Shown here piece by piece: positions 6,720 to 31,527 of a stretch of DNA of 37,585 bases; the first letter of the stretch is position 1, and each line of letters begins with the position of its first letter. The DNA is from a virus: the UHGV virus genome UHGV-0147806; one strand, 5' to 3'. A program made the translations under genes and the position numbers. The notes beneath the pieces were generated by a model, which saw only the letters and a list, made by a program, of their open reading frames with translations, was not told where the DNA came from and ran no database searches.

Positions 6720-7208
6720 ATGTTGGATGTATTTACTCCATTGTTGAAACTTTTTGCTAACGAGCCACTCGAAATACTTATGTATACGATTATCATTTTT
6801 GGTCTCACTCTCTGGCTGATACCGAAAGAGTTTACTGTCGCATTCAATGCTTATACTGAAATACCTTGGCTCTTTCAGATTATCGTTTTTGCCTTTTCTT
6901 TCGTGGTCGCCATTTCCTTCTCAAGATTGCGAGCACATATTCAAAAGCATTATTCATTACTACCAGAGCAACGAGTATTGCTTCGTTTATCTGAGAAAGA
7001 AATCGCTGTATTTAAAGATTTCCTTAAAACAGGAAATCTTATTATCACTTCTCCTTGCCGTAACCCGGTTATGAAAAAATTAGAACGGAAGGGCATCATT
7101 CAACATCAGAGTGATAGCGCAAACTGTTCTTATTATCTCGTCACCGAAAAATACTCCCATTTTATGAAGTTATTCTGGAACAGCAGGAGTAGACGTTTTA
7201 ATCGTTAG
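6720..7208 (+). CDS. sieB: Superinfection exclusion protein B (SieB-like, 162 aa, membrane protein)
   Basis: Internal ATG at 6720 with an upstream GAGAG; hydrophobic N-terminal segments; opposite orientation inside the leftward operon, as in Rac. Confidence 0.8.
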   Translation: MLDVFTPLLKLFANEPLEILMYTIIIFGLTLWLIPKEFTVAFNAYTEIPWLFQIIVFAFSFVVAISFSRLRAHIQKHYSLLPEQRVLLRLSEKEIAVFKDFLKTGNLIITSPCRNPVMKKLERKGIIQHQSDSANCSYYLVTEKYSHFMKLFWNSRSRRFNR

Positions 7209-7209
7209 C

Positions 7210-7359
7210 TTACTGTGTGCTTCTCCAACCATCGGCCGCACCAGTTTCGGTTTTAAATGTTTTGCTTTTGGTATACGTCATGGCAGTGAACGTTCCATCC
7301 TGGTTGGGGAACACGCCGCACACCAGGGATTCGTTGTTGCCGAGGTCGATTTTTTGCAT
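7210..7359 (-). CDS. ydaF: YdaF-like small protein (49 aa)
   Basis: Hand translation MQKIDLGNNESLVCGVFPNQDGTFTAMTYTKSKTFKTETGAADGWRSTQ*; lies between ydaG and sieB. Confidence 0.55.
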   Translation of the reverse strand: MQKIDLGNNESLVCGVFPNQDGTFTAMTYTKSKTFKTETGAADGWRSTQ

Positions 7360-7369
7360 TTTGCGAATC

Positions 7370-7504
7370 TCACATCTTGTTGCTGTGTATAGCGACTTCT
7401 GCCTGCCAGAGATCCCAGTCGTTGCTGCGTAAAGCCTGCACAGCCTGGTTGTAAGTGATACCGCAACAATCCATCAAATACTGAACTACTTCGTAATGCA
7501 CCAT
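7370..7504 (-). CDS. ydaG: YdaG-like small protein (44 aa)
   Basis: ATG-initiated 44-aa product MVHYEVVQYLMDCCGITYNQAVQALRSNDWDLWQAEVAIHSNKM; first gene downstream of the OL-like operator region. Confidence 0.55.
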   Translation of the reverse strand: MVHYEVVQYLMDCCGITYNQAVQALRSNDWDLWQAEVAIHSNKM

Positions 7505-7669
7505 CTTATCTCTCCCCTTAACGCCGGGTGGCGGAACTGAAACCTGCTGCACTGCAAAATCTGAACCCTGCCGTCATGTTCATACGCCTCGGGCTGGCTA
7601 CTTAACCCCTGACCACTGCCTGGTAACTCGAAGTATTGCCCTGCGTTCTGTGGGGCGGGGTGGGTTGGT

Positions 7670-7725
7670 AGGTATATAATGTACTTTGTGTTCATTGATG
7701 TAAAGTACTTTAAGTACATTTTGTG
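7670..7725. promoter_or_regulatory. OL-like operator/promoter region with three GTAC-core sites (AATGTACTTT, palindromic AAAGTACTTT, AAGTACATTT)
   Basis: Repeats seen at 7678-7687, 7703-7712 and 7713-7722; TATAAT at 7675-7680; located between the repressor 3' end and the leftward early genes. Confidence 0.6.
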
Positions 7726-7794
7726 TGTAAAAAAATGAGATGGGATAAAGTGAAGCACAAACCCGGAGGGGGACGCTACCGGATTTATGCTGGT

Positions 7795-8214
7795 TTAAGA
7801 GGCTTTTTGTTTTTTCTTTCGTGCTAGCTCTTCGTAAATTGCATTGTACTTCTGTTTTTTCTCCTCAAGAGTTTTTAAAAGTTCATCTGTCTCACTGTCA
7901 GGGAGCTCGTCCAGAAGGTCAATGATGATTTTTTGTCTTGGATTTAACTCCTGATAGAAACGTACCTGTCCACTTTCTTCTGTATCCTCTCCCAAAAGAT
8001 AGGTTGGTGTTGTTCCAATGAGTGTTGCTAATTCCCTTAATTTCTCTCGGCGAGGAATTGTTTCGCCATTAAACCATTTGCTAACCGCTTTTGGTGTTAA
8101 TTTCATTCGACGGGCAATTTCTGCCTGCCTTCCATGTTGTTCATAACCAGCGTTTTCACAGGCTAGCGCAAGCCTACTGGCGAACTCTTTACGCGCTTTA
8201 TCTTCATGAACCAT
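7795..8214 (-). CDS. XRE-family HTH prophage repressor (RacR-like/cI-like, 139 aa)
   Basis: N-terminal HTH (QAEIARRMKLTPKAVSKWFNGETIP); divergent from a cro-like gene; flanked by operator repeats. Confidence 0.75.
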   Translation of the reverse strand: MVHEDKARKEFASRLALACENAGYEQHGRQAEIARRMKLTPKAVSKWFNGETIPRREKLRELATLIGTTPTYLLGEDTEESGQVRFYQELNPRQKIIIDLLDELPDSETDELLKTLEEKKQKYNAIYEELARKKKQKAS

Positions 8215-8293
8215 AAGTTCAATGATATTCGCTCTTGAATGTACTGTCAGTTCTGTTATAGCATGTACTCAAAGTTCACATTGTGAGGGTGAT
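8215..8293. promoter_or_regulatory. OR-like divergent promoter/operator region (two ATGTACT sites)
   Basis: 79-bp divergent intergenic region; GAATGTACT at 8245-8253 and GCATGTACT at 8272-8280 share the GTAC core with the OL-like sites. Confidence 0.55.
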
Positions 8294-8548
8294 ATGAACC
8301 AGAAAACACTTGAAGATGTAATCAAAACTGTTCGCGTTTCTGTTGTGGCCGACGTTTGTGGTGTCAGCCAAAGAGCAATCTACAAATGGATGGATAACGG
8401 AAAATTGCCTCGCACAGAATATACCGGCGAAACAAATTACGCTGAAAAAATCGCTCATGCATCAAACGGATTATTTTCTGCTGATGTAATTTTAACTATT
8501 GGCAGAAATAAAACTACTACGAAAAAGCTGATGGGAGTTGATTCATGA
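8294..8548 (+). CDS. ydaS: Cro-like HTH protein (YdaS-like)
   Basis: ATG at 8294 after GAGGGTGA; HTH (VCGVSQRAIYKWMDNGKLP); divergent from the repressor. Confidence 0.7.
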   Translation: MNQKTLEDVIKTVRVSVVADVCGVSQRAIYKWMDNGKLPRTEYTGETNYAEKIAHASNGLFSADVILTIGRNKTTTKKLMGVDS

Positions 8549-8967
8549 AAATCAAGCATGAGCACATCGAGTCAGTGTTGTTAGCCCTGGCAGCCGAAAA
8601 AGGGCAGGCATGGGTAGCCAATGCCATTACTGAAGAATATCTGCGCCAGGGGGGCGGCGAATTGCCCCTGGTACCAGGCAAGGACTGGAATAATCAGCAG
8701 AATATCTATCACCGTTGGTTGAAAGGTGAAACGAAAACGCAAAGAGAAAAAATTCAGAAGCTGATCCCAGCAATTCTGGCAATCCTTCCGCGCGAGCTGC
8801 GTCACCGACTCTGCATCTTCGATACCCTGGAACGCCGTGCATTACTGGCGGCGCAGGAAGCGTTAAGTACGGCAATTGATGCGCATGATGATGCAGTCCA
8901 AGCCGTTTACCGGAAAGCGCATTTCAGCGGCGGCGGGTCTTCCGACGATTCTGTCATTGTTCATTAA
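8545..8967 (+). CDS. ydaT: YdaT-like protein (140 aa)
   Basis: ATGA overlap with ydaS; length and position as in Rac. Confidence 0.75.
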   Translation: MKIKHEHIESVLLALAAEKGQAWVANAITEEYLRQGGGELPLVPGKDWNNQQNIYHRWLKGETKTQREKIQKLIPAILAILPRELRHRLCIFDTLERRALLAAQEALSTAIDAHDDAVQAVYRKAHFSGGGSSDDSVIVH

Positions 8968-8979
8968 GCAAAAGTTTCC

Positions 8980-9837
8980 ATGCTGTTTGTGCTTATTCTA
9001 AGCCACCGGGCAGCATCATACGGGGCAATTATGGCCGCATTACCATACATGCAACTGTACATAGCTGATTACCTGGCTGACACCATGCATTTGTCAGCAG
9101 AGGAGCATGGTGCGTATTTGTTGCTGATGTTCAATTACTGGCAAACAGGAAAGCCAATACCTAAAAACAGGCTGGCAAAAATTGCCCGTCTGACTAACGA
9201 GCGATGGGCTGATGTTGAACCATCCTTGCAGGAGTTTTTTTGCGATAACGGCGAGGAATGGGTGCATCTTCGGATTGAGGAAGATCTGGCATCAGTCAGG
9301 GAAAAATTAACCAAAAAATCAGCCGCAGGAAAAGCATCTGTTCAGGCCAGAAGAAGCAGAAAGGAAGCAGATGTTCAAACAAAACAAGAGAGAAATTTAA
9401 CAGGTGTTCAAACAGATGTTGAAGTGGTGTTTGAACATGATGTCAACACAAAGGCAACTAATAAAGATACAGATAAAGATCTAAAAACAGGTCCCCCCCT
9501 AAATCCCCCCCGGGGGAATCGAGGTGTCAAAAAGTTTGACCCTCTGGATATTGCTTTGCCGAACTGGATTTCTGTCTCGCTTTGGCGTGAGTGGGTTGAA
9601 TTTCGCCAGGCATTGCGAAAACCGATTCGAACGGAGCAGGGCGCTAACGGGGCGATACGGGAGCTGGAAAAATTCCGCCAGCAGGGTTTTTCACCTGAGC
9701 AGGTGATTCGACACAGCATCGCCAATGAATACCAGGGCTTGTTCGCGCCGAAAGGTGTTCGACCTGAGACGTTACTCCGACAGGTTAACACCGTCTCGTT
9801 ACCGGATAGTGCGATCCCGCCAGGCTTCAGGGGGTAA
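8980..9837 (+). CDS. ydaU: Replication initiation protein (YdaU-like, 285 aa)
   Basis: Position before the DnaC-like gene; N-terminal YIADYLADT... motif. Confidence 0.75.
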   Translation: MLFVLILSHRAASYGAIMAALPYMQLYIADYLADTMHLSAEEHGAYLLLMFNYWQTGKPIPKNRLAKIARLTNERWADVEPSLQEFFCDNGEEWVHLRIEEDLASVREKLTKKSAAGKASVQARRSRKEADVQTKQERNLTGVQTDVEVVFEHDVNTKATNKDTDKDLKTGPPLNPPRGNRGVKKFDPLDIALPNWISVSLWREWVEFRQALRKPIRTEQGANGAIRELEKFRQQGFSPEQVIRHSIANEYQGLFAPKGVRPETLLRQVNTVSLPDSAIPPGFRG

Positions 9838-9843
9838 CTGACC

Positions 9844-10590
9844 ATGAAAAATATTGCGACAGGCGACGTTCTTGAACGTATCCGCAGACTGGCCCCGTCA
9901 CATGTAACCGCGCCATTCAAGACGGTAGCGGAGTGGCGCGAGTGGCAACTTTCCGAAGGCCAGAAACGTTGTGAGGAGATCAACCGTCAGAATCGTCAGT
10001 TGCGGGTGGAAAAAATTCTGAATCGCTCTGGCATCCAGCCATTGCACCGCAAATGCTCGTTTTCGAATTACCAGGTGCAGAACGAAGCGCAGCGATACGC
10101 GTTGAGTCAGGCGAAATCCATCGCTGATGAACTGATGACCGGGTGTACAAATTTTGCGTTCAGCGGAAAACCTGGTACCGGGAAGAACCACTTAGCGGCA
10201 GCTATCGGGAATCGCCTGCTGAAAGACGGTCAGACAGTGATTGTGGTTACCGTGGCTGATGTTATGAGTGCCCTGCACGCCAGCTATGACGATGGGCAGT
10301 CAGGCGAAAAATTTTTGCGGGAACTATGCGAAGTGGATCTGCTGGTTCTTGATGAAATTGGCATTCAGCGCGAGACGAAAAACGAGCAGGTGGTGCTGCA
10401 CCAGATTGTTGATCGCCGGACAGCGTCGATGCGCAGCGTGGGGATGCTGACAAACCTGAACTATGAGGCCATGAAAACATTGCTCGGCGAGCGGATTATG
10501 GATCGCATGACCATGAACGGCGGGCGATGGGTGAATTTTAACTGGGAGAGCTGGCGTCCGAATGTCGTCCAGCCAGGAATTGAGAAGTAA
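9844..10590 (+). CDS. ydaV: DnaC-like helicase loader / IstB-type AAA ATPase (YdaV-like, 248 aa)
   Basis: Walker A GKPGTGKNHLAAAIG and Walker B LLVLDEIG seen in the translation. Confidence 0.85.
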   Translation: MKNIATGDVLERIRRLAPSHVTAPFKTVAEWREWQLSEGQKRCEEINRQNRQLRVEKILNRSGIQPLHRKCSFSNYQVQNEAQRYALSQAKSIADELMTGCTNFAFSGKPGTGKNHLAAAIGNRLLKDGQTVIVVTVADVMSALHASYDDGQSGEKFLRELCEVDLLVLDEIGIQRETKNEQVVLHQIVDRRTASMRSVGMLTNLNYEAMKTLLGERIMDRMTMNGGRWVNFNWESWRPNVVQPGIEK

Positions 10591-10698
10591 TTTTTACCGG
10601 GAGGAAATTTTTATGGAGACTGTTTTTGACGCACTGAAAGCAATGGGAAAGCCACATCCATAGAACTTGCTGCGCGACTTGATATCAGTCGTGAAGAA

Positions 10699-11529
10699 GT
10701 GCTGAACGAACTATGGGAACTGAAAAAAGCTGGTTTCGTTGATAAAAGCGCGTACACCTGGCGTGTGGCTGATAACAACGTTCAGCAGGAACAGCCAATG
10801 CAGGCAGAACTGCCGGAAGAAACCACCACGGCAACTGTAGTGAAAATCTCAGAGTGCGATTTAACCGCGACGATTGAACAACGCGGACCACAAACGGCGG
10901 ATGAACTGGCTACGCTGTTCGGTACAACATCCCGCAAAGTTGCTTCAACGCTGGCAATGGCAATCAGCAAAGGACGCCTGATTCGCGTAAACCAGAACGG
11001 TAAATTTCGTTACTGCATGCCGGGCGATAATTTACCAGCAGAGCCGAAAGCTGCATCGGTAGCGGAAACTGATGGTAAAGCCTTTCCTCAGCCAGCCGGT
11101 GTTGCGTTACCAGTACAGGAAGCGGCAACACAGGAAGAGCGTGAAAAAATTAAGGAGCAGGTTGTTGAGTTGGTACGCCAGAGTGGGCGCGAGACGTTAA
11201 GGCAACTGGAGGCCAAGACAGGTGCGACAAGATATCTGATGAGCATTCTTGCCAGAGAGTTGGTTGCCAGTGGCGATGTATACAACTCTGGCTATGGGTT
11301 ATTCCCGTCTGAACAGGCTCGTAAGGATTGGAAAAACGCCCGCAAAAAACTATCCAGGGCAAAGGTGAAAAAAACGGTTGTGGTTGATCCTGACCTTATC
11401 TGGTCATTACCAGACGGAGAAATACGCCGCTATGACAGGCGTCAGAACATAATCTGTCGCGAGTGCCGGAAGAGTGAAGTTATGAAACGTGTACTGGCAT
11501 TTTATCAAGGAAATCTTCGGTATTTATAG
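10699..11529 (+). CDS. YdaW-like protein, N-terminus probably disrupted (upstream fragment 10613..10663 in another frame)
   Basis: First ATG of the long frame is 10699, but the frame is open from 10630; a strong RBS (GGGAGGAAATTTTT-ATG at 10613) opens a 16-codon ORF in a different frame ending in TAG. Confidence 0.6.
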
Positions 11530-11826
11530 ACGTTACTAGATCAAAGAGCATTAGTTCATATGTAAATTGACATTTTTCTGGCACAGGGGAGAGCTAGCGT
11601 GGTTGTCCGCTTTGTGCCAGGAGCGGAAGTAGCAAACCAGATTTTACTGAAGCTTGAGCAGAGATACCACCAACTGATGCCTATCAGTAATGGGGCTCTT
11701 GATGATTCAAATAAAAAAGATTAAATTGATTAAGATTATTCTTACTTGATTAATTGTTTTGCGCATGGGCTTGGAAAACCATGAATCAGATCTTCACTAG
11801 ATAAAACAACGAACTATGGAGGAAGC

Positions 11827-12918
11827 GTGGGCGGCGAAACTAAGAATATTGATGAGATTGCAGGTATCATTTCCAGTAGAATTTTTGATGAGTTAGGCTG
11901 GAAAACCCAAAATACAACGGATATAAGTTGGGACTGTTGTTTGAGATCTCATCTAAACGCTAAACAACTTTTATCTGAAAACCCAAAAAAAACTCATCCT
12001 ACGGATGTAGTCTTCAAATATAAAGATCCTTATTCAGATATAACTCAGTATATACAAACAGATTTAAAATCTTATTGTGCCAGCACGCTTGACGGTACAA
12101 AATCAATATTGAACACTGTACGAAGTTTATCACAACAGGTAGCTTGCGCGCCAAGAAGTCCTGAGTGGCGGCGTTTATTTGTTGACAGCACAAATGAGAA
12201 ATATCAAGTTAACGGCCTACTTTTTATATATAATCATGACAATAAATATGACTCTGATTTAATTGAGAAATTAAATGGAGCAGCCACAGCAAGTTATGAT
12301 TTTCCAGAGAACTCTGTGATTGCCGTTTTTGACCCAACTATGATCAGATTTTTACTAGATGTTACAGAACACATCGAGACTAGAAGAGGAATTACTGACA
12401 AAGTAACACAAGAAACAAATATGTTATGGCAAAAAATTCCTGAGATAGAGAACTGTACATATTTTTACCCTGACAAACATAATAAAATAGCAACGAAAGG
12501 GAAAATCCTTCCAGCCACAATTGAAATGATAACATCTGGGATGATTTTTTACTCATATGAACACGAATATATTAGAAATGATGGTGGCGATAGAATAAGA
12601 AATAAAATATTGAATATATTCTGGAAGGAAGAGGTTGATTCCAGTAACCACTTTATATTTCTTTTAGAGTATATATTTAACTATCAATTACTCAATCAAT
12701 TTGACAAAATATTTGTTATAACTCCGTTCTCATCACACTCAAGCATTCATTTGCAATCCGCCATTAATGATTACATAGGAATATATTCTTTCACTCAATC
12801 TCATATAGAAACGTTAAAGGAAAAAATAGTATCCATTCCTTTTGTTAATCAAAAGCTATCTATATTTGAGTACCAGGTTGCCAGCAAGCAGGTGAATAGA
12901 AAATGTCACTTTTCATAA
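11827..12918 (+). CDS. Hypothetical protein A of AT-rich three-gene accessory operon (363 aa, GTG start)
   Basis: GTG at 11827 preceded by GGAGGA; AT-rich codon usage; no motif I can recognise with certainty. Confidence 0.7.
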   Translation: MGGETKNIDEIAGIISSRIFDELGWKTQNTTDISWDCCLRSHLNAKQLLSENPKKTHPTDVVFKYKDPYSDITQYIQTDLKSYCASTLDGTKSILNTVRSLSQQVACAPRSPEWRRLFVDSTNEKYQVNGLLFIYNHDNKYDSDLIEKLNGAATASYDFPENSVIAVFDPTMIRFLLDVTEHIETRRGITDKVTQETNMLWQKIPEIENCTYFYPDKHNKIATKGKILPATIEMITSGMIFYSYEHEYIRNDGGDRIRNKILNIFWKEEVDSSNHFIFLLEYIFNYQLLNQFDKIFVITPFSSHSSIHLQSAINDYIGIYSFTQSHIETLKEKIVSIPFVNQKLSIFEYQVASKQVNRKCHFS

Positions 12919-12928
12919 GGAGTATGAC

Positions 12929-14176
12929 ATGAATAAATATCAAGCTACGTTGTTTTCAAACGAAAGTGACATTTATACCGCCCTCCACTCTAACAGTGCA
13001 AAAATCACAGATGTTACATTAAGGAAAATCGCCTTCAATAGAGGGATAATTTTCCCATCTAACTTATCAAAAGAGGTATTGATAGAAAAATTATCAGACC
13101 TGCCATTTTCATATAATCACATCAGAGAAGTACAAGATAAACTGGCAACCAAACCCAGCCAAGACGTCTTCTCAGTAAAACGTATATATGAAGAATTTGA
13201 TATAGAGAAACTCTATGACGTTGTAAACAAAGTGAAAGAAAATAGACCCAAGTTGCTAGGGCATGAGAAAATTGATCATTACTCAGGCTTGCAAACCTAT
13301 CATATATCTATTGATTATACTGAGTTTGATTTTAGAAGGGGTAAGTTTCAGCAGAAAAAATTGTACAGTGGGAGTATAGTTTTTATAGTAAAAAAAGGAT
13401 ATGTTTCAGTAAGATATAACTATACGCCACGCATTTCAGAAATTCTCAAGCAAATAATTGATACATATTCATCAACAGTTTGTAACAACATAGTTGTCAA
13501 CGAAATAGATTTATCAAGTATCGTCGATACAGATCTTAGGAATATTTTTGCTGTTCATCTTTATGATTTTGATGGAAATTATAAAAAAACAGGACTTGAA
13601 TATGCTGGTCTTGAAAAGGTTAGAGTAAGCAGAATAAAAACATCTCTGGATATTAATGGAGATAATCTCGAAGGAAATAATAACGAAGAAACACAAGAGT
13701 TATTAAACAAGATTTCACCTTCTACAGATAACGAAAATGATGATGACATTAATAATCAGGAAATGGCATCTGACGATGATGAAAACCTAACTTTTAACAT
13801 TAACAATGCCGCGTATGATGGCCTATCATTAGTGAACGCACCTCAAATTAAGGAACTGTGCAGTGATGGGTTTTATCGAAGCTTAATTCGATGGAAGTCA
13901 TTTTCCTCAGTAGTTAAGAATCATACTATAACTTTTGAACTTAGTTTCGATGATAAATATCTTGGGAAAAATATAAAATTCAGAGCGTTATACAAAGAAA
14001 GCAACTCTGCATCCGCAGAGAGAGAAAAACTCAGTGACGCAGACTTTGATCAAGTCATGAAACAATTAGAAGATAAAATATTTTTGATTAATGACTTTAT
14101 TATCGAAGAGCATACCAAGCGATACCCAGTAACGAAAGCTATGTCTTGCGAGACTTTGAATCAGGAGGCTGGATGA
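12929..14176 (+). CDS. Hypothetical protein B of accessory operon (415 aa, acidic low-complexity linker)
   Basis: ATG after AAGGAG, 10 nt downstream of gene A; DNENDDDINNQEMASDDDEN linker. Confidence 0.7.
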   Translation: MNKYQATLFSNESDIYTALHSNSAKITDVTLRKIAFNRGIIFPSNLSKEVLIEKLSDLPFSYNHIREVQDKLATKPSQDVFSVKRIYEEFDIEKLYDVVNKVKENRPKLLGHEKIDHYSGLQTYHISIDYTEFDFRRGKFQQKKLYSGSIVFIVKKGYVSVRYNYTPRISEILKQIIDTYSSTVCNNIVVNEIDLSSIVDTDLRNIFAVHLYDFDGNYKKTGLEYAGLEKVRVSRIKTSLDINGDNLEGNNNEETQELLNKISPSTDNENDDDINNQEMASDDDENLTFNINNAAYDGLSLVNAPQIKELCSDGFYRSLIRWKSFSSVVKNHTITFELSFDDKYLGKNIKFRALYKESNSASAEREKLSDADFDQVMKQLEDKIFLINDFIIEEHTKRYPVTKAMSCETLNQEAG

Positions 14177-14829
14177 TGATAAAGGTAAAAATTTATAAAG
14201 CAGAAAAGGATATAACTAAAAGTGAGTTATTACATAAAGTAAATGACAACCTCTATGATGAAGATAAAGGATATGGTTTTCAAATCATTAATAACTCTGA
14301 AGTGCTTAAACTAAGATTTACCATGAGAAGCATTAGCAAGCAAAGCTTAGAATATGCTAATGGCGAGCGTTCAGAGGTTGAAATAGCAACTTACTTAAAT
14401 GTGGACTTTGGCGTCAGACAAGGGAAAAAAATCATACTATATGCCACTAATCCTCCATTAAGTATGAAAGTGCCTTATACTATGGTGCAAAAACTATTTG
14501 GTGAAGATAGTGGCTTGAGACCAGTAGAATTTGATCTGAGAAAAATTGTAAATGGTCTTTCTGAGGGCTTTGACATCAAGATAAAATCCATGTCTCTATC
14601 TAATATCTCTGTTGATCCTTTTACTTTAGCAAAGACAAAAATAGTAAGCTCAAAGAATCTCCAAGAAATTTATCAGAATAAATACATGAATAGTTCGGCC
14701 GTTTTTGATTCCGTACATTTCTTCGTTAACGGAATTGAAACGGAATTATCTAGGACGGGTAGATTCCGTGTGAGAGAGAGTCAGCTTCCAACACTTTTAT
14801 CCATCTTAGAAACTCTCAGAATTTTGTGA
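14173..14829 (+). CDS. Hypothetical protein C of accessory operon (about 218 aa)
   Basis: ATGATG start overlapping the gene B stop (ATGA), preceded by AGGAGG; strong intrinsic terminator follows. Confidence 0.65.
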   Translation: MMIKVKIYKAEKDITKSELLHKVNDNLYDEDKGYGFQIINNSEVLKLRFTMRSISKQSLEYANGERSEVEIATYLNVDFGVRQGKKIILYATNPPLSMKVPYTMVQKLFGEDSGLRPVEFDLRKIVNGLSEGFDIKIKSMSLSNISVDPFTLAKTKIVSSKNLQEIYQNKYMNSSAVFDSVHFFVNGIETELSRTGRFRVRESQLPTLLSILETLRIL

Positions 14830-14856
14830 AATATATAAGGAACTCAGGCCTACTTC

Positions 14857-14884
14857 GTCAGTAGGCCCCTTTTCCGGTTTGTAC
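14857..14884 (+). terminator. Rho-independent terminator of the three-gene operon
   Basis: GGCCTACT-tcgtc-AGTAGGCC stem-loop followed by CCTTTT. Confidence 0.75.
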
Positions 14885-15375
14885 TTATCTAGTCATCGAT
14901 TTGATCGTAATGATTCACACAGGATGCTGTTAGCAATGTCCGCTCTTCGCTCAAAGCGGACTAAAATGTTGGCTTGTTTCTGACTTAGAGCATTTAAGGA
15001 AGTGCTGGTGGTGACTGGTTGTTGTGTTCCATTTCTACAGAATAAAATCACAGAAACTATACCCAATAGTTGTATTGAATCACTGACGAGACAGCCTCAT
15101 ATTTATCAGGACTGGTGTGCGTCTAATACAGGGGGTTGTCGTGCTGGTTCTCAAATGTGCGCTGGCTATTGCGGCTGTAATGGCAATTTATTGTCTTGCT
15201 GTTGTTCTTATGGAGCGGCTTTCTGATTGATTACATACTGGCTAGAAAAAAGGTGTTACCTTGGTTTATCTTTGTCCGGCAAGGTGCGCTCATTAATCTT
15301 AAGTAAATTTATTGCTCAAGTATTCAGATTACTTCTTATGGTTGAAGTCTCCTGTCAATGTAGAACCAATATATT

Positions 15376-15783: not shown

Positions 15784-16596
15784 AACCACCTCCTCCAAAA
15801 CATGCATTAAAAATGCATCTTTTGGAGGGTTATGTCAAGCTGTTATGAAACACATAATTGATATGTTGATTAGAGGAGAAGATAGAATAAATATGGTTGT
15901 TTTTCGTATAACTATTTGTTTTACTTTTAGTTTATGCATTCTGTGTGTTAGGAATAAGTTATTAAAGTTTAATCAAAAAATCTCGATGTAGTCCACATAG
16001 ATTACTGTTACTGAACCTTATTGTGTGTATTAGTTGTGTTCTGAAATTTCAGCTTAATTATTTATGATGTATTTTTTAACGATAAATATTTTCCCAGGAT
16101 ACCTTTACTGTGTATATAAATAAATTATATACGCATAAATAATGTAAAGGCGTCCTTTTAGATATATCTTATCAAATGTTAATGACTTGAGTGGGAAATA
16201 TGATTCCAGCAACTTATCATGTGGCTACTTTATAAAAATAATGCCCATATAAAACAACAAGCGAAAAGGATTACGGATAAAAAAGGAGCGAGATGTGCGA
16301 ACTTGTTATTTTCCATGTTTAACCACCTTAAATAATTGATGATGACGGGATGATTGCATCTGTAATGCTTTTATTGAAATGTTATGATAAAAAAGAACTT
16401 TTGCATAACATTAAAATGTAATTTATCTAATCGTTTTTAATAATAAGTGTCGTATTTCTATCCTTGTACCAGCTATTTGATATGTAGTGTTTGTTCATGC
16501 TATGTGGGGCTTTACACCATAGCCAGTTTATTTATACTTTATTCGTCAGCCTGAACAACTGGCATCTGCTGCGCTGCGCCATCGAGAGATTGAGAA

Positions 16597-30954: not shown

Positions 30955-31527
30955 ATGGCTGGAAATACCCTGACCGGGTTGATCCCGACTATTTATACCG
31001 CCCTGGATGTTGTATCCCGTGAGCAGGTAGGTTTTATCCCTGCGGTAGCAAAAAACGCAAAAGCTGACGCCGCAGCAAAAGATCAGACGGTAACCGCGCC
31101 AGTTGCGCCTGAGGCGAAAACCGAAGATATCGTACCGGGGCCGTCAGCTCCGAATACCGGTGATCAAAATATTGGCACTGTTGATGTAAAAATTACTAAA
31201 TCCAAAATGGCACCGGTTAAATGGAATGGTGAAGAACAACTGGCTCTTGGCCCTTCAGGGACTTACAACACCATTCTGGCTGATCAGTTCAAGCAGGCTT
31301 TTCGCGCCCTTGCAAACGAGGTTGAGGCTGATCTTGGTGCGTTGTATTTCGGTGCTTCCCGCGCCGTGGGAACCGCAGGGACAACGCCGTTTGGTGTTAA
31401 AGATGATCTTTCTGATGCTGCTCTGGCTCGTCAGGTTACCGCAGCAGATGAAGCACCTACGATAACCAGAAAAAAAAATTCCCCGGCTGCCGTGATCGCA
31501 AAAGCCAGTGCTGAGGCGATTAGTTGA
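30955..31527 (+). CDS. Capsid-like protein, short (190 aa); possibly a 3'-truncated major capsid gene
   Basis: ATG after AAGGAATATTTAATT; occupies the position expected for the major capsid gene but is too short for one. Confidence 0.35.
   Translation: MAGNTLTGLIPTIYTALDVVSREQVGFIPAVAKNAKADAAAKDQTVTAPVAPEAKTEDIVPGPSAPNTGDQNIGTVDVKITKSKMAPVKWNGEEQLALGPSGTYNTILADQFKQAFRALANEVEADLGALYFGASRAVGTAGTTPFGVKDDLSDAALARQVTAADEAPTITRKKNSPAAVIAKASAEAIS

What the first reader, a model, noticed from the sequence alone, without database searches (positions are those of the whole stretch)
10601..10700. Probable frameshift at the 5' end of the ydaW-like gene
A strong RBS and ATG at 10613 open a 16-codon ORF ([16 protein letters not shown]). 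The long ORF frame is already open from 10630 and, read there, encodes a plausible winged-helix continuation (...[30 protein letters not shown]...). A single-nucleotide indel in the GGGAAA run (10645-10650) would join the two into one protein. This is either a pseudogenising mutation, a sequencing error in a homopolymer, or a slippage site.
Basis: seen in the sequence. Interest (0 to 1): 0.45.

Follow-up and report, generated by a model that had tools for sequence, protein, structure and literature searches.

The report
Frameshift pseudogene in decaying Rac prophage
A single missing A has knocked the start of a prophage DNA-binding-protein gene (ydaW, already fused to its neighbour lygF) out of frame; it is a real, inherited mutation in a decaying Rac-type prophage of E. 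coli, so it is ordinary gene decay and not a sequencing error or an evolved recoding signal.

Summary
ATG 10613, behind a strong Shine-Dalgarno sequence, opens a 16-codon ORF. The long ORF's frame is open from 10630. One extra A in the run at 10648-10650 joins the two. Every intact homologue examined has GGGAAAAG (A4) where the window has GGGAAAG (A3), and starts at the ATG equivalent to 10613. So the window carries a 1-nt deletion. It is not a sequencing error. The same A3 allele occurs in at least 24 other contigs, including strains KTE112 and KTE193 and three metagenome assemblies whose DNA I read. It also sits in a nested series of lesions. The window's long homopolymers agree with its relatives. 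It is not a conserved recoding site either: A4 in frame is the ancestral and general state, and no stimulatory RNA structure follows. The exact unshifted 305-aa fusion protein exists on two other contigs. The prophage also lacks about 3.3 kb of head and tail genes. By coincidence the deletion creates G GGA AAG, a classic -1 slippery heptamer. A slip there would restore the exact ancestral protein, so the allele may be leaky rather than null. That is inferred, not shown. Interest is low.

The parts
9844..10590 (+). ydaV (DnaC/IstB-like ATP-binding replication protein). This intact upstream gene of the same operon is listed for context.
   Evidence: 248-aa ORF. Annotated as ydaV in relatives. 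Pfam IstB_IS21 on the identical gene in L010.
10599..10605 (+). Shine-Dalgarno sequence GGGAGGA, 8 nt before the ancestral ydaW start codon.
   Evidence: Read from the sequence. Conserved as GGGAG(G/A)A in homologues.
10613..10663 (+). 16-codon remnant ORF ([16 protein letters not shown]). The first 13 codons are the true 5' end of ydaW. Codons 14-16 and the stop are out of frame.
   Evidence: Intact homologues read [23 protein letters not shown] from the same ATG.
10645..10651 (+). Lesion site. The A-run at 10648-10650 is A3 here and A4 in all intact relatives. The resulting G GGA AAG is an X XXY YYZ heptamer in the frame of the short ORF.
   Evidence: Alignment. Indel census. L011, L012, L015 and L016 have A4 on an otherwise near-identical background. 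29 of 29 loci in other collections have A4.
10630..11529 (+). Out-of-frame remainder of the ydaW'-'lygF fusion gene. Gene callers report it from GTG 10699 as a 276-aa 'phage protein'.
   Evidence: Pfam DUF1627 (179.6 bits) and DUF977 (103.6 bits) on the repaired protein.
11128..11138 (+). Junction of an older 276-bp in-frame deletion. One copy of the 11-bp direct repeat ACACAGGAAGA is left. The deletion removed ydaW codons 176-253, its stop codon, the 15-nt spacer and lygF codons 1-8.
   Evidence: Alignment. BLAST pieces overlap at 11128-11138. The same junction is present in NCTC9066, 30COLEC and LD39-1 and in L010-L016.

Best explanation
The feature is a genuine, vertically inherited 1-nt deletion (A4 to A3 at 10648-10650) in codon 13/14 of a gene in the replication module of a Rac-type prophage of E. 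coli. The gene had already become an in-frame fusion of ydaW (DUF1627, tandem winged-helix-like domains) with the downstream lygF (DUF977), through a 276-bp deletion between 11-bp direct repeats. Ribosomes that start at the strong ancestral RBS and ATG (10613) now stop after 16 codons. The remaining 289 codons are out of frame, so normal translation no longer makes the full-length fusion protein. The likely cause is replication slippage in the short A-run (inferred). The likely setting is relaxed selection, because the prophage has also lost about 3.3 kb of capsid-to-tail-tube genes and carries a second 1-nt deletion in ydaF. Order of events, shown by the nested distribution: separate ydaW and lygF with A4, then the fusion with A4 (305-aa protein; L011/L015 and L012/L016), then the fusion with A3 (L010, L013), then the fusion with A3 plus the ydaF deletion (L014 and the window). 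By coincidence the deletion created G GGA AAG in the short ORF's frame. A -1 ribosomal slip there reads GGG-AAA-GCC and regenerates exactly the ancestral sequence ...MGK-ATSIEL.... A small fraction of full-length protein may therefore still be made. That step is inferred and was not measured.
For: Homologues at 90-99.9% identity have AAAA and an annotated CDS starting at the equivalent of 10613. With an 85-nt query across the site, 1,723 E. coli records match but none at 99% identity or more, and all 30 listed rows span 86 nt, which means A4. All 29 loci found in the GTDB species-representative genomes and in metagenome contigs with a pattern that accepts A3 or A4 are A4. The repaired 305-aa protein exists verbatim (P0001). 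Its two contigs (fetched as L011/L015 and L012/L016) have A4 plus the same fusion junction, and across the near-identical stretch 7236-15219 their only indels against the window are the missing A and, where covered, the ydaF base at 7236. The window's 276-aa ORF (P0002) is carried by at least 24 contigs in 32 index blocks, including NCBI entries ELC88969.1 (KTE112) and ELI31208.1 (KTE193). DNA from three independent ENA assemblies (L010, L013, L014) shows A3. L013 has A3 with an intact ydaF, while L014 and the window have A3 with the ydaF deletion. The window is otherwise clean: over about 34 kb, only two 1-nt indels are consistent against three relatives, and the long homopolymers agree with L005 (all of them) and L006 (all but one A-run at 15796). 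Prophage decay is shown by the roughly 3.3-kb gap at 31436/31437. From the literature, G GGA AAG directs frameshifting in E. coli almost as well as A AAA AAG, but efficiency falls sharply without a downstream stimulator (PMC6924986).
Against: I could not inspect reads. The case against a sequencing error rests on recurrence in independent assemblies and on the nested pattern. cannot tell an A3 allele with one flanking SNP from a perfect A4 allele among the unlisted rows, so 'absent from all 5,426 complete genomes' is strictly shown only for flanks identical to the window. Loss of function is inferred from the reading frame. No expression data exist, and an N-terminally truncated product from an internal start (GTG 10699, or ATG 10798 with AGGA 7 nt upstream) could keep some activity. 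The biological function of DUF1627 and DUF977 proteins is unknown. There are only sub-threshold or barely-threshold winged-helix Pfam hits and no solved relative.
Confidence: 0.9

Rival explanations
1. It is a sequencing or assembly error: a homopolymer under-call (A4 read as A3) in this one assembly, and the gene is really intact.
For: The lesion lies in a homopolymer. The closest complete-genome relative at this locus (EC2) is itself an error-prone assembly, with frameshift and internal-stop flags on ydaU and ydaV. No complete RefSeq genome matched the A3 version perfectly.
Against: The same A3 allele is present in the DNA of three independent metagenome assemblies (L010, L013, L014). The truncated 276-aa ORF it produces is reported from at least 24 contigs, including two named strains. 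The allele fits a nested series of other lesions. A run of four bases is short for systematic homopolymer error. Longer runs in the window (A5 to A9) agree with relatives.
Confidence: 0.02
2. It is an evolved programmed -1 ribosomal frameshift. G GGA AAG would serve as a recoding signal that sets a fixed low ratio of full-length fusion protein to a 16-residue peptide.
For: There is a perfect X XXY YYZ heptamer in the 0 frame. A -1 slip restores the exact ancestral protein sequence. G GGA AAG is an efficient slippery sequence on E. coli ribosomes (PMC6924986). From memory, the same heptamer is used by phage lambda G/GT. The allele persists in a lineage sampled many times.
Against: The arrangement is not conserved. 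Every homologue outside this narrow lineage has A4 in frame, including the immediate ancestor with the same fusion. The 90 nt downstream of the heptamer show no unusual RNA structure (z = -0.65, 43 of 200 shuffles fold as well), and no SD-like element is visible upstream of the heptamer. The 0-frame product is a 16-residue peptide with no evident role. The host prophage is visibly decaying.
Confidence: 0.03
3. The long ORF is still expressed from an internal start (GTG 10699 or ATG 10798), and the N-terminally truncated protein (276 or 243 aa) is the relevant, possibly altered-function product. This is compatible with the main explanation for the origin of the lesion.
For: Gene callers annotate the 276-aa ORF. 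ATG 10798 is in frame and has AGGA 7 nt upstream. The second winged-helix-like region (FeoC-like hit at residues 83-130) and the whole DUF977 part would be retained. The stop of the short ORF lies only 36 nt before GTG 10699, so re-initiation is conceivable.
Against: No good Shine-Dalgarno sequence precedes GTG 10699. No sigma-70-like promoter lies within 10400-11900. The first winged-helix-like domain (residues 2-46) would be cut in half or lost. There is no expression evidence of any kind.
Confidence: 0.1
4. It is a phase-variable (contingency) homopolymer that switches the gene on and off reversibly.
For: Both A3 and A4 alleles exist on nearly identical backgrounds.
Against: A tract of 3 or 4 bases is far shorter than known contingency tracts, which usually have about 7 or more repeats (established knowledge). 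The alleles are distributed in a nested, clonal way, with no sign of reversion. All 29 loci in the other collections are A4.
Confidence: 0.01

Closest known systems
ydaW of the E. coli K-12 Rac prophage (annotated pseudogene, DUF1627 family)
   Same: It is the same gene family at the same position, immediately after ydaU and ydaV in the Rac replication module. The 5' end is about 94% identical. It is likewise inactivated in a cryptic prophage.
   Different: In K-12-type strains the gene keeps its A4 start and is truncated at its 3' end by the large Rac deletion that joins it to the lysis genes and trkG. Here the 3' part was lost through a 276-bp microhomology deletion that fused it in frame to lygF, and the 5' end was later frameshifted.
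Intact DUF1627 (YdaW) and DUF977 (LygF) gene pairs of Rac-like and lambdoid prophages and phages, such as E. coli W, EC2, phage vB_EcoS-666R9 and Rac-SA53
   Same: The order ydaV, DUF1627, DUF977 is the same, with 90-99.9% nucleotide identity and the same RBS and ATG.
   Different: Those are two separate genes of about 254 and about 139 codons with a 15-nt spacer. The window has one fused, frameshifted gene.
Programmed -1 frameshift sites of E. coli and its phages (dnaX A AAA AAG; lambda G/GT G GGA AAG, the latter recalled from memory)
   Same: The heptamer type is identical (X XXY YYZ ending in A AAG). tRNA-Gly and tRNA-Lys can re-pair in the -1 frame (PMC6924986).
   Different: The site arose by a recent deletion and is not conserved. 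It has no detectable stimulator. It lies at codon 12-13 rather than near the end of an upstream ORF. The 0-frame product is a 16-residue peptide.

Membership tests
DUF1627 / YdaW family (Pfam PF07789) | The Pfam DUF1627 domain scores above its gathering threshold. | tested here: met
   179.6 bits against a cut-off of 28.1 on the repaired protein, but only profile positions 1-100 of 155 are present. The precomputed hit on the 276-aa ORF agrees.
DUF1627 / YdaW family (Pfam PF07789) | A complete ORF runs from the conserved ATG behind the conserved RBS, directly downstream of ydaV. | tested here: not met
   The position and the RBS/ATG are conserved, but the frame is broken after codon 13 and the C-terminal 78 codons are deleted. 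The gene is therefore a family member by descent and a pseudogene by state.
   Residues 2-46 hit HTH_9 (24.8 bits, cut-off 23.4). MarR_2, HTH_20, TrmB and HTH_Crp_2 hits are all below their cut-offs. Residues 83-130 hit FeoC (23.2 bits, cut-off 21). No significant solved-structure relative was found. No structure was predicted.
DUF977 / LygF family (Pfam PF06163) | The Pfam DUF977 domain scores above its gathering threshold. | tested here: met
   103.6 bits against a cut-off of 22.1, covering profile positions 5-133 of 134 at residues 172-302 of the repaired fusion. The first 8 codons of lygF are missing.
Programmed -1 ribosomal frameshift (recoding) sites | An X XXY YYZ slippery heptamer lies in the upstream frame. 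| tested here: met
   G GGA AAG at 10645-10651 is in the frame of ATG 10613.
Programmed -1 ribosomal frameshift (recoding) sites | The two-frame arrangement is conserved among homologues. | tested here: not met
   All homologues examined outside the narrow lineage are A4 and in frame, and so is the immediate fused ancestor.
Programmed -1 ribosomal frameshift (recoding) sites | A stimulatory element is present: a downstream stem-loop or pseudoknot, or an upstream SD-like sequence. | tested here: not met
   The 90 nt downstream fold no better than shuffled sequence (z = -0.65). No SD-like motif is visible in the 20 nt upstream of the heptamer. Pseudoknots were not searched for.
Programmed -1 ribosomal frameshift (recoding) sites | A frameshift product is made at a defined ratio. 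| not testable with these tools
   This needs a reporter assay or proteomics.
Sequencing artefact (homopolymer miscall) | The allele is confined to one assembly, and other homopolymer discrepancies occur in the same assembly. | tested here: not met
   A3 was seen in the DNA of L010, L013 and L014 and is implied in at least 24 contigs. The window has only two 1-nt indels that are consistent against relatives in about 34 kb, and one of them is not in a homopolymer.
Phase-variable contingency locus | A long simple-sequence tract (about 7 or more units) varies in length within lineages. | tested here: not met
   The tract is A3 or A4 only, and the alleles are distributed in a nested way.

The most novel reading that the evidence does not exclude
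The A3 allele may be a selected hypomorph rather than a dead gene. The deletion converted the site into G GGA AAG, so spontaneous -1 ribosomal slippage would regenerate the exact ancestral YdaW'-'LygF fusion protein at a few per cent of its former level. The lineage would keep the allele because a low dose of this winged-helix protein, or the coupling of its synthesis to translation conditions, is advantageous. That would be recoding born in a single mutational step.
Probability: 0.05. Interest if true: 0.4.

Novelty: already known. Interest (0 to 1): 0.12.

Why it matters
It matters little beyond correct annotation. The locus should be annotated as one frameshifted ydaW'-'lygF fusion pseudogene, not as a 276-aa 'phage protein' as in KTE112 and KTE193. 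The nested lesions (fusion, then A-run deletion, then ydaF deletion, alongside large deletions in sister strains) give a tidy, datable example of stepwise decay of the Rac prophage, and could serve as lineage markers. The only point of wider interest is that a single-base deletion made a textbook slippery heptamer whose -1 product is the wild-type protein. That is a convenient natural test of how much 'accidental' frameshifting rescues a frameshift mutation in vivo.

Tried and rejected
1) I first concluded that the 276-bp fusion was unique to the window. That was wrong. The rows listed were all two-piece matches, but a stricter E-value and direct alignment showed three complete genomes with the same junction. 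My first notebook entry is corrected in the second.
2) I tried to count A3 alleles across all complete E. coli genomes with one short megablast query. The identity bands cannot separate 'A3 plus one SNP' from 'perfect A4', so the result is strict only for identical flanks. I supplemented it with exact-protein look-ups and a pattern scan that accepts either allele.
3) Literature searches for ydaW, DUF1627, DUF977 and LygF gave no functional study. They gave only a bioinformatic survey that lists YdaW among predicted transcription factors (PMC9308461), and a preprint screen in which over-expressed K-12 ydaW blocked the retron-Sen2 toxin RcaT (bioRxiv 10.1101/2020.06.22.160242).
4) The solved-structure sequence search found nothing significant; the best hit was E = 0.19 to a GntR-like protein.
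5) The local Pfam copy gave no hit for the three cargo proteins, although a precomputed PF26115 hit exists. PADLOC gave candidate models.
6) I did not run structure prediction, fold search or the representative-protein search, because the question was settled at the DNA level.

Full report
**The observation.** GGGAGGA at 10599-10605 precedes ATG 10613 by 8 nt. The ORF 10613-10663 encodes [16 protein letters not shown] and then stops. The other frame is closed by TGA at 10627-10629 and is then open from 10630 to 11529. Its first listed start is GTG 10699 (276 aa). Read from 10630, it encodes ...[31 protein letters not shown].... Adding one base within 10645-10650 joins the two frames.

**Comparison with homologues.** The window is a Rac-type prophage integrated next to ttcA. 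It carries intR, xisR, recT, recE, kilR, sieB, ydaS/T/U/V, lysis genes, trkG, terminase and tail genes. In relatives, the gene after ydaV is annotated as a DUF1627 protein (YdaW). Its CDS starts at the ATG equivalent to 10613 and is about 254 codons long. A separate DUF977 gene (LygF) of about 139 codons follows. In K-12-like strains ydaW is a pseudogene truncated at its 3' end. Aligned across the site, four homologues match the window except that they have GGGAAAAG where the window has GGGAAAG. The window therefore lacks one A. The intact reading is [23 protein letters not shown].... That condition is not met.

**A second, older lesion.** The window is 277 bp shorter than its relatives across this locus. 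One base of that is the missing A. The other 276 bp are a deletion between two copies of the 11-bp repeat ACACAGGAAGA (the junction copy is at 11128-11138). It removed ydaW codons 176-253, the stop codon, the 15-nt spacer and lygF codons 1-8, and it left the two genes fused in frame. On the repaired protein, Pfam finds DUF1627 (179.6 bits, profile positions 1-100 of 155) and DUF977 (103.6 bits). It also finds weak winged-helix-type hits at residues 2-46 and 83-130. At first I took the fusion to be unique to the window, and that was wrong. Three complete genomes (NCTC9066, 30COLEC, LD39-1) carry the same junction. They have separately lost window 7531-10915, which includes the A-run, so they say nothing about that site.

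**Real mutation or sequencing error?** Three lines of evidence point to a real mutation.
- **The window is clean.** Over about 34 kb aligned to three relatives at 99.7-100% identity, only two 1-nt indels are consistent against all three: the A-run, and a G in a GCGC context at 7236. Longer homopolymers agree.
- **The predicted ancestor exists.** The repaired 305-aa fusion protein is in the public collection verbatim (P0001). It is on two contigs that have A4 plus the fusion junction. Across the near-identical stretch 7236-15219, their only indels against the window are the missing A and, where covered, the ydaF base at 7236.
- **The A3 allele recurs.** The 276-aa ORF that exists only when the start is frameshifted (P0002) is carried by at least 24 contigs in 32 index blocks. 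These include NCBI entries from strains KTE112 and KTE193 and a 5.15-Mb contig. I read the DNA of three independent ENA assemblies (L010, L013, L014), and all show A3.

The lesions are nested:

| Sequences | A-run | ydaW'-'lygF fusion | ydaF |
|---|---|---|---|
| L015, L016 | A4 | present | intact in L015; not covered by L016 |
| L013 | A3 | present | intact |
| L014, window | A3 | present | 1-nt deletion |

This pattern is what vertical inheritance of successive mutations predicts. Independent miscalls would not produce it.

**Evolved slippage site?** A4 in frame is the general state.
- An 85-nt query across the site matched 1,723 E. coli records, none at 99% identity or more. All 30 listed rows span 86 nt, which means A4.
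- A pattern that accepts either allele found 3 loci in the GTDB species-representative genomes and 26 in metagenome contigs. All 29 are A4 and none is fused.
- The 90 nt downstream of the site fold no better than shuffled controls (z = -0.65).
- No sigma-70-like promoter or other signal stands out in 10400-11900.

The arrangement is thus a recent accident in one lineage. It is still worth noting that the deletion turned G GGA AAA G into G GGA AAG in the frame of the short ORF. This is a perfect X XXY YYZ heptamer. A -1 slip on it (GGA to GGG, AAG to AAA, next codon GCC) gives ...MGK-ATSIEL..., which is exactly the ancestral protein. According to PMC6924986, G GGA AAG directs frameshifting in E. 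coli almost as well as A AAA AAG, but slippery sequences without a stimulator shift much less. PMC9307594 puts spontaneous frameshifting during canonical translation at 1e-4 to 1e-5. I therefore expect at most a low level of rescue. This is an inference and was not measured.

**Mechanism and consequence.**
- *Shown:* there is a 1-nt deletion in the A-run. Translation from the ancestral start terminates at codon 17. The remaining 289 codons are in another frame.
- *Inferred:* the deletion arose by replication slippage. The full-length fusion protein is lost or strongly reduced. Any product from GTG 10699 (no good SD) or ATG 10798 (AGGA 7 nt upstream) would lack half or all of the first winged-helix-like domain.
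- *Setting:* the prophage is decaying. It lacks about 3.3 kb spanning the 3' part of the major capsid gene through the tail tube gene, and ydaF is frameshifted. Sister strains have lost the immunity and replication region. Relaxed selection on the replication module is therefore the simplest explanation.

**What is known about the proteins.** No functional study of DUF1627 or DUF977 turned up. YdaW is listed among predicted transcription factors of unknown function (PMC9308461). Over-expressed K-12 ydaW was a blocker of the retron-Sen2 toxin in one preprint screen (bioRxiv 10.1101/2020.06.22.160242). No solved structure is significantly similar.

**Verdict.** Sequencing error (about 0.02) and an evolved slippage site (about 0.03) are very unlikely. 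This is ordinary prophage gene decay. The sequence is already in public databases, mis-annotated as a 276-aa phage protein. Interest is low (0.12). The only mildly unusual point is the accidental slippery heptamer that could make the allele leaky.

Noticed in passing
window 11128-11138 (junction); fused ORF to 11529: A 276-bp in-frame deletion between 11-bp direct repeats (ACACAGGAAGA) fuses ydaW (DUF1627) codon 175 to lygF (DUF977) codon 9. It is shared with NCTC9066, 30COLEC, LD39-1 and several metagenome contigs, and it predates the frameshift.
   Followed up: yes
window ~7205-7360 (- strand), lesion after 7236: ydaF (DUF1391, 51 aa in relatives) has a 1-nt deletion in a GCGC context (CGGC[G]CGCAC) relative to seven relatives. 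It is shared only with metagenome contig L014, so it is the most recent of the nested lesions.
   Followed up: yes
window 31436/31437: About 3.3 kb present in JP538 and NCTC10444 (L005 43399-46723) is missing. It runs from the 3' part of the P22-type major capsid gene through the head-tail genes to most of the tail tube gene, so the prophage should be unable to form virions.
   Followed up: partly
window 11827-14829 (+), three ORFs of 363, 415 and about 220 aa: An AT-rich three-gene cargo lies directly downstream of the fusion gene. It matches the PADLOC candidate defence models Hp1, Hp2 and Hp3 (PDLC03004-06; E = 5e-41, 1e-10, 4e-11), and the 363-aa protein has a precomputed PF26115 PDDEXK_GAPS4 hit. 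The slot is a variable hotspot: JP538 and NCTC10444 carry two different hypothetical genes there, and E. coli W carries DUF262 plus an AAA ATPase. The local Pfam copy gave no hit.
   Followed up: partly
L008 (NCTC9066) and L009 (30COLEC), relative to window 7531-10915: Sister prophages with the same fusion and cargo have lost about 3.4 kb, from the repressor region through ydaS/T/U/V to the first 300 bp of ydaW. RefSeq annotates the remnant as 'DUF977, missing N-terminus'. 30COLEC also has IS2 in recE and ISApl1 in the 415-aa cargo gene.
   Followed up: partly
L001 (E. coli EC2, NZ_CP058571.1): The closest complete-genome relative at this locus has ydaU flagged as frameshifted, ydaV flagged with an internal stop, and a frameshifted cargo gene. 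All of these are intact in the window and in other relatives, which suggests that assembly, not the window, is the error-prone one.
   Followed up: no
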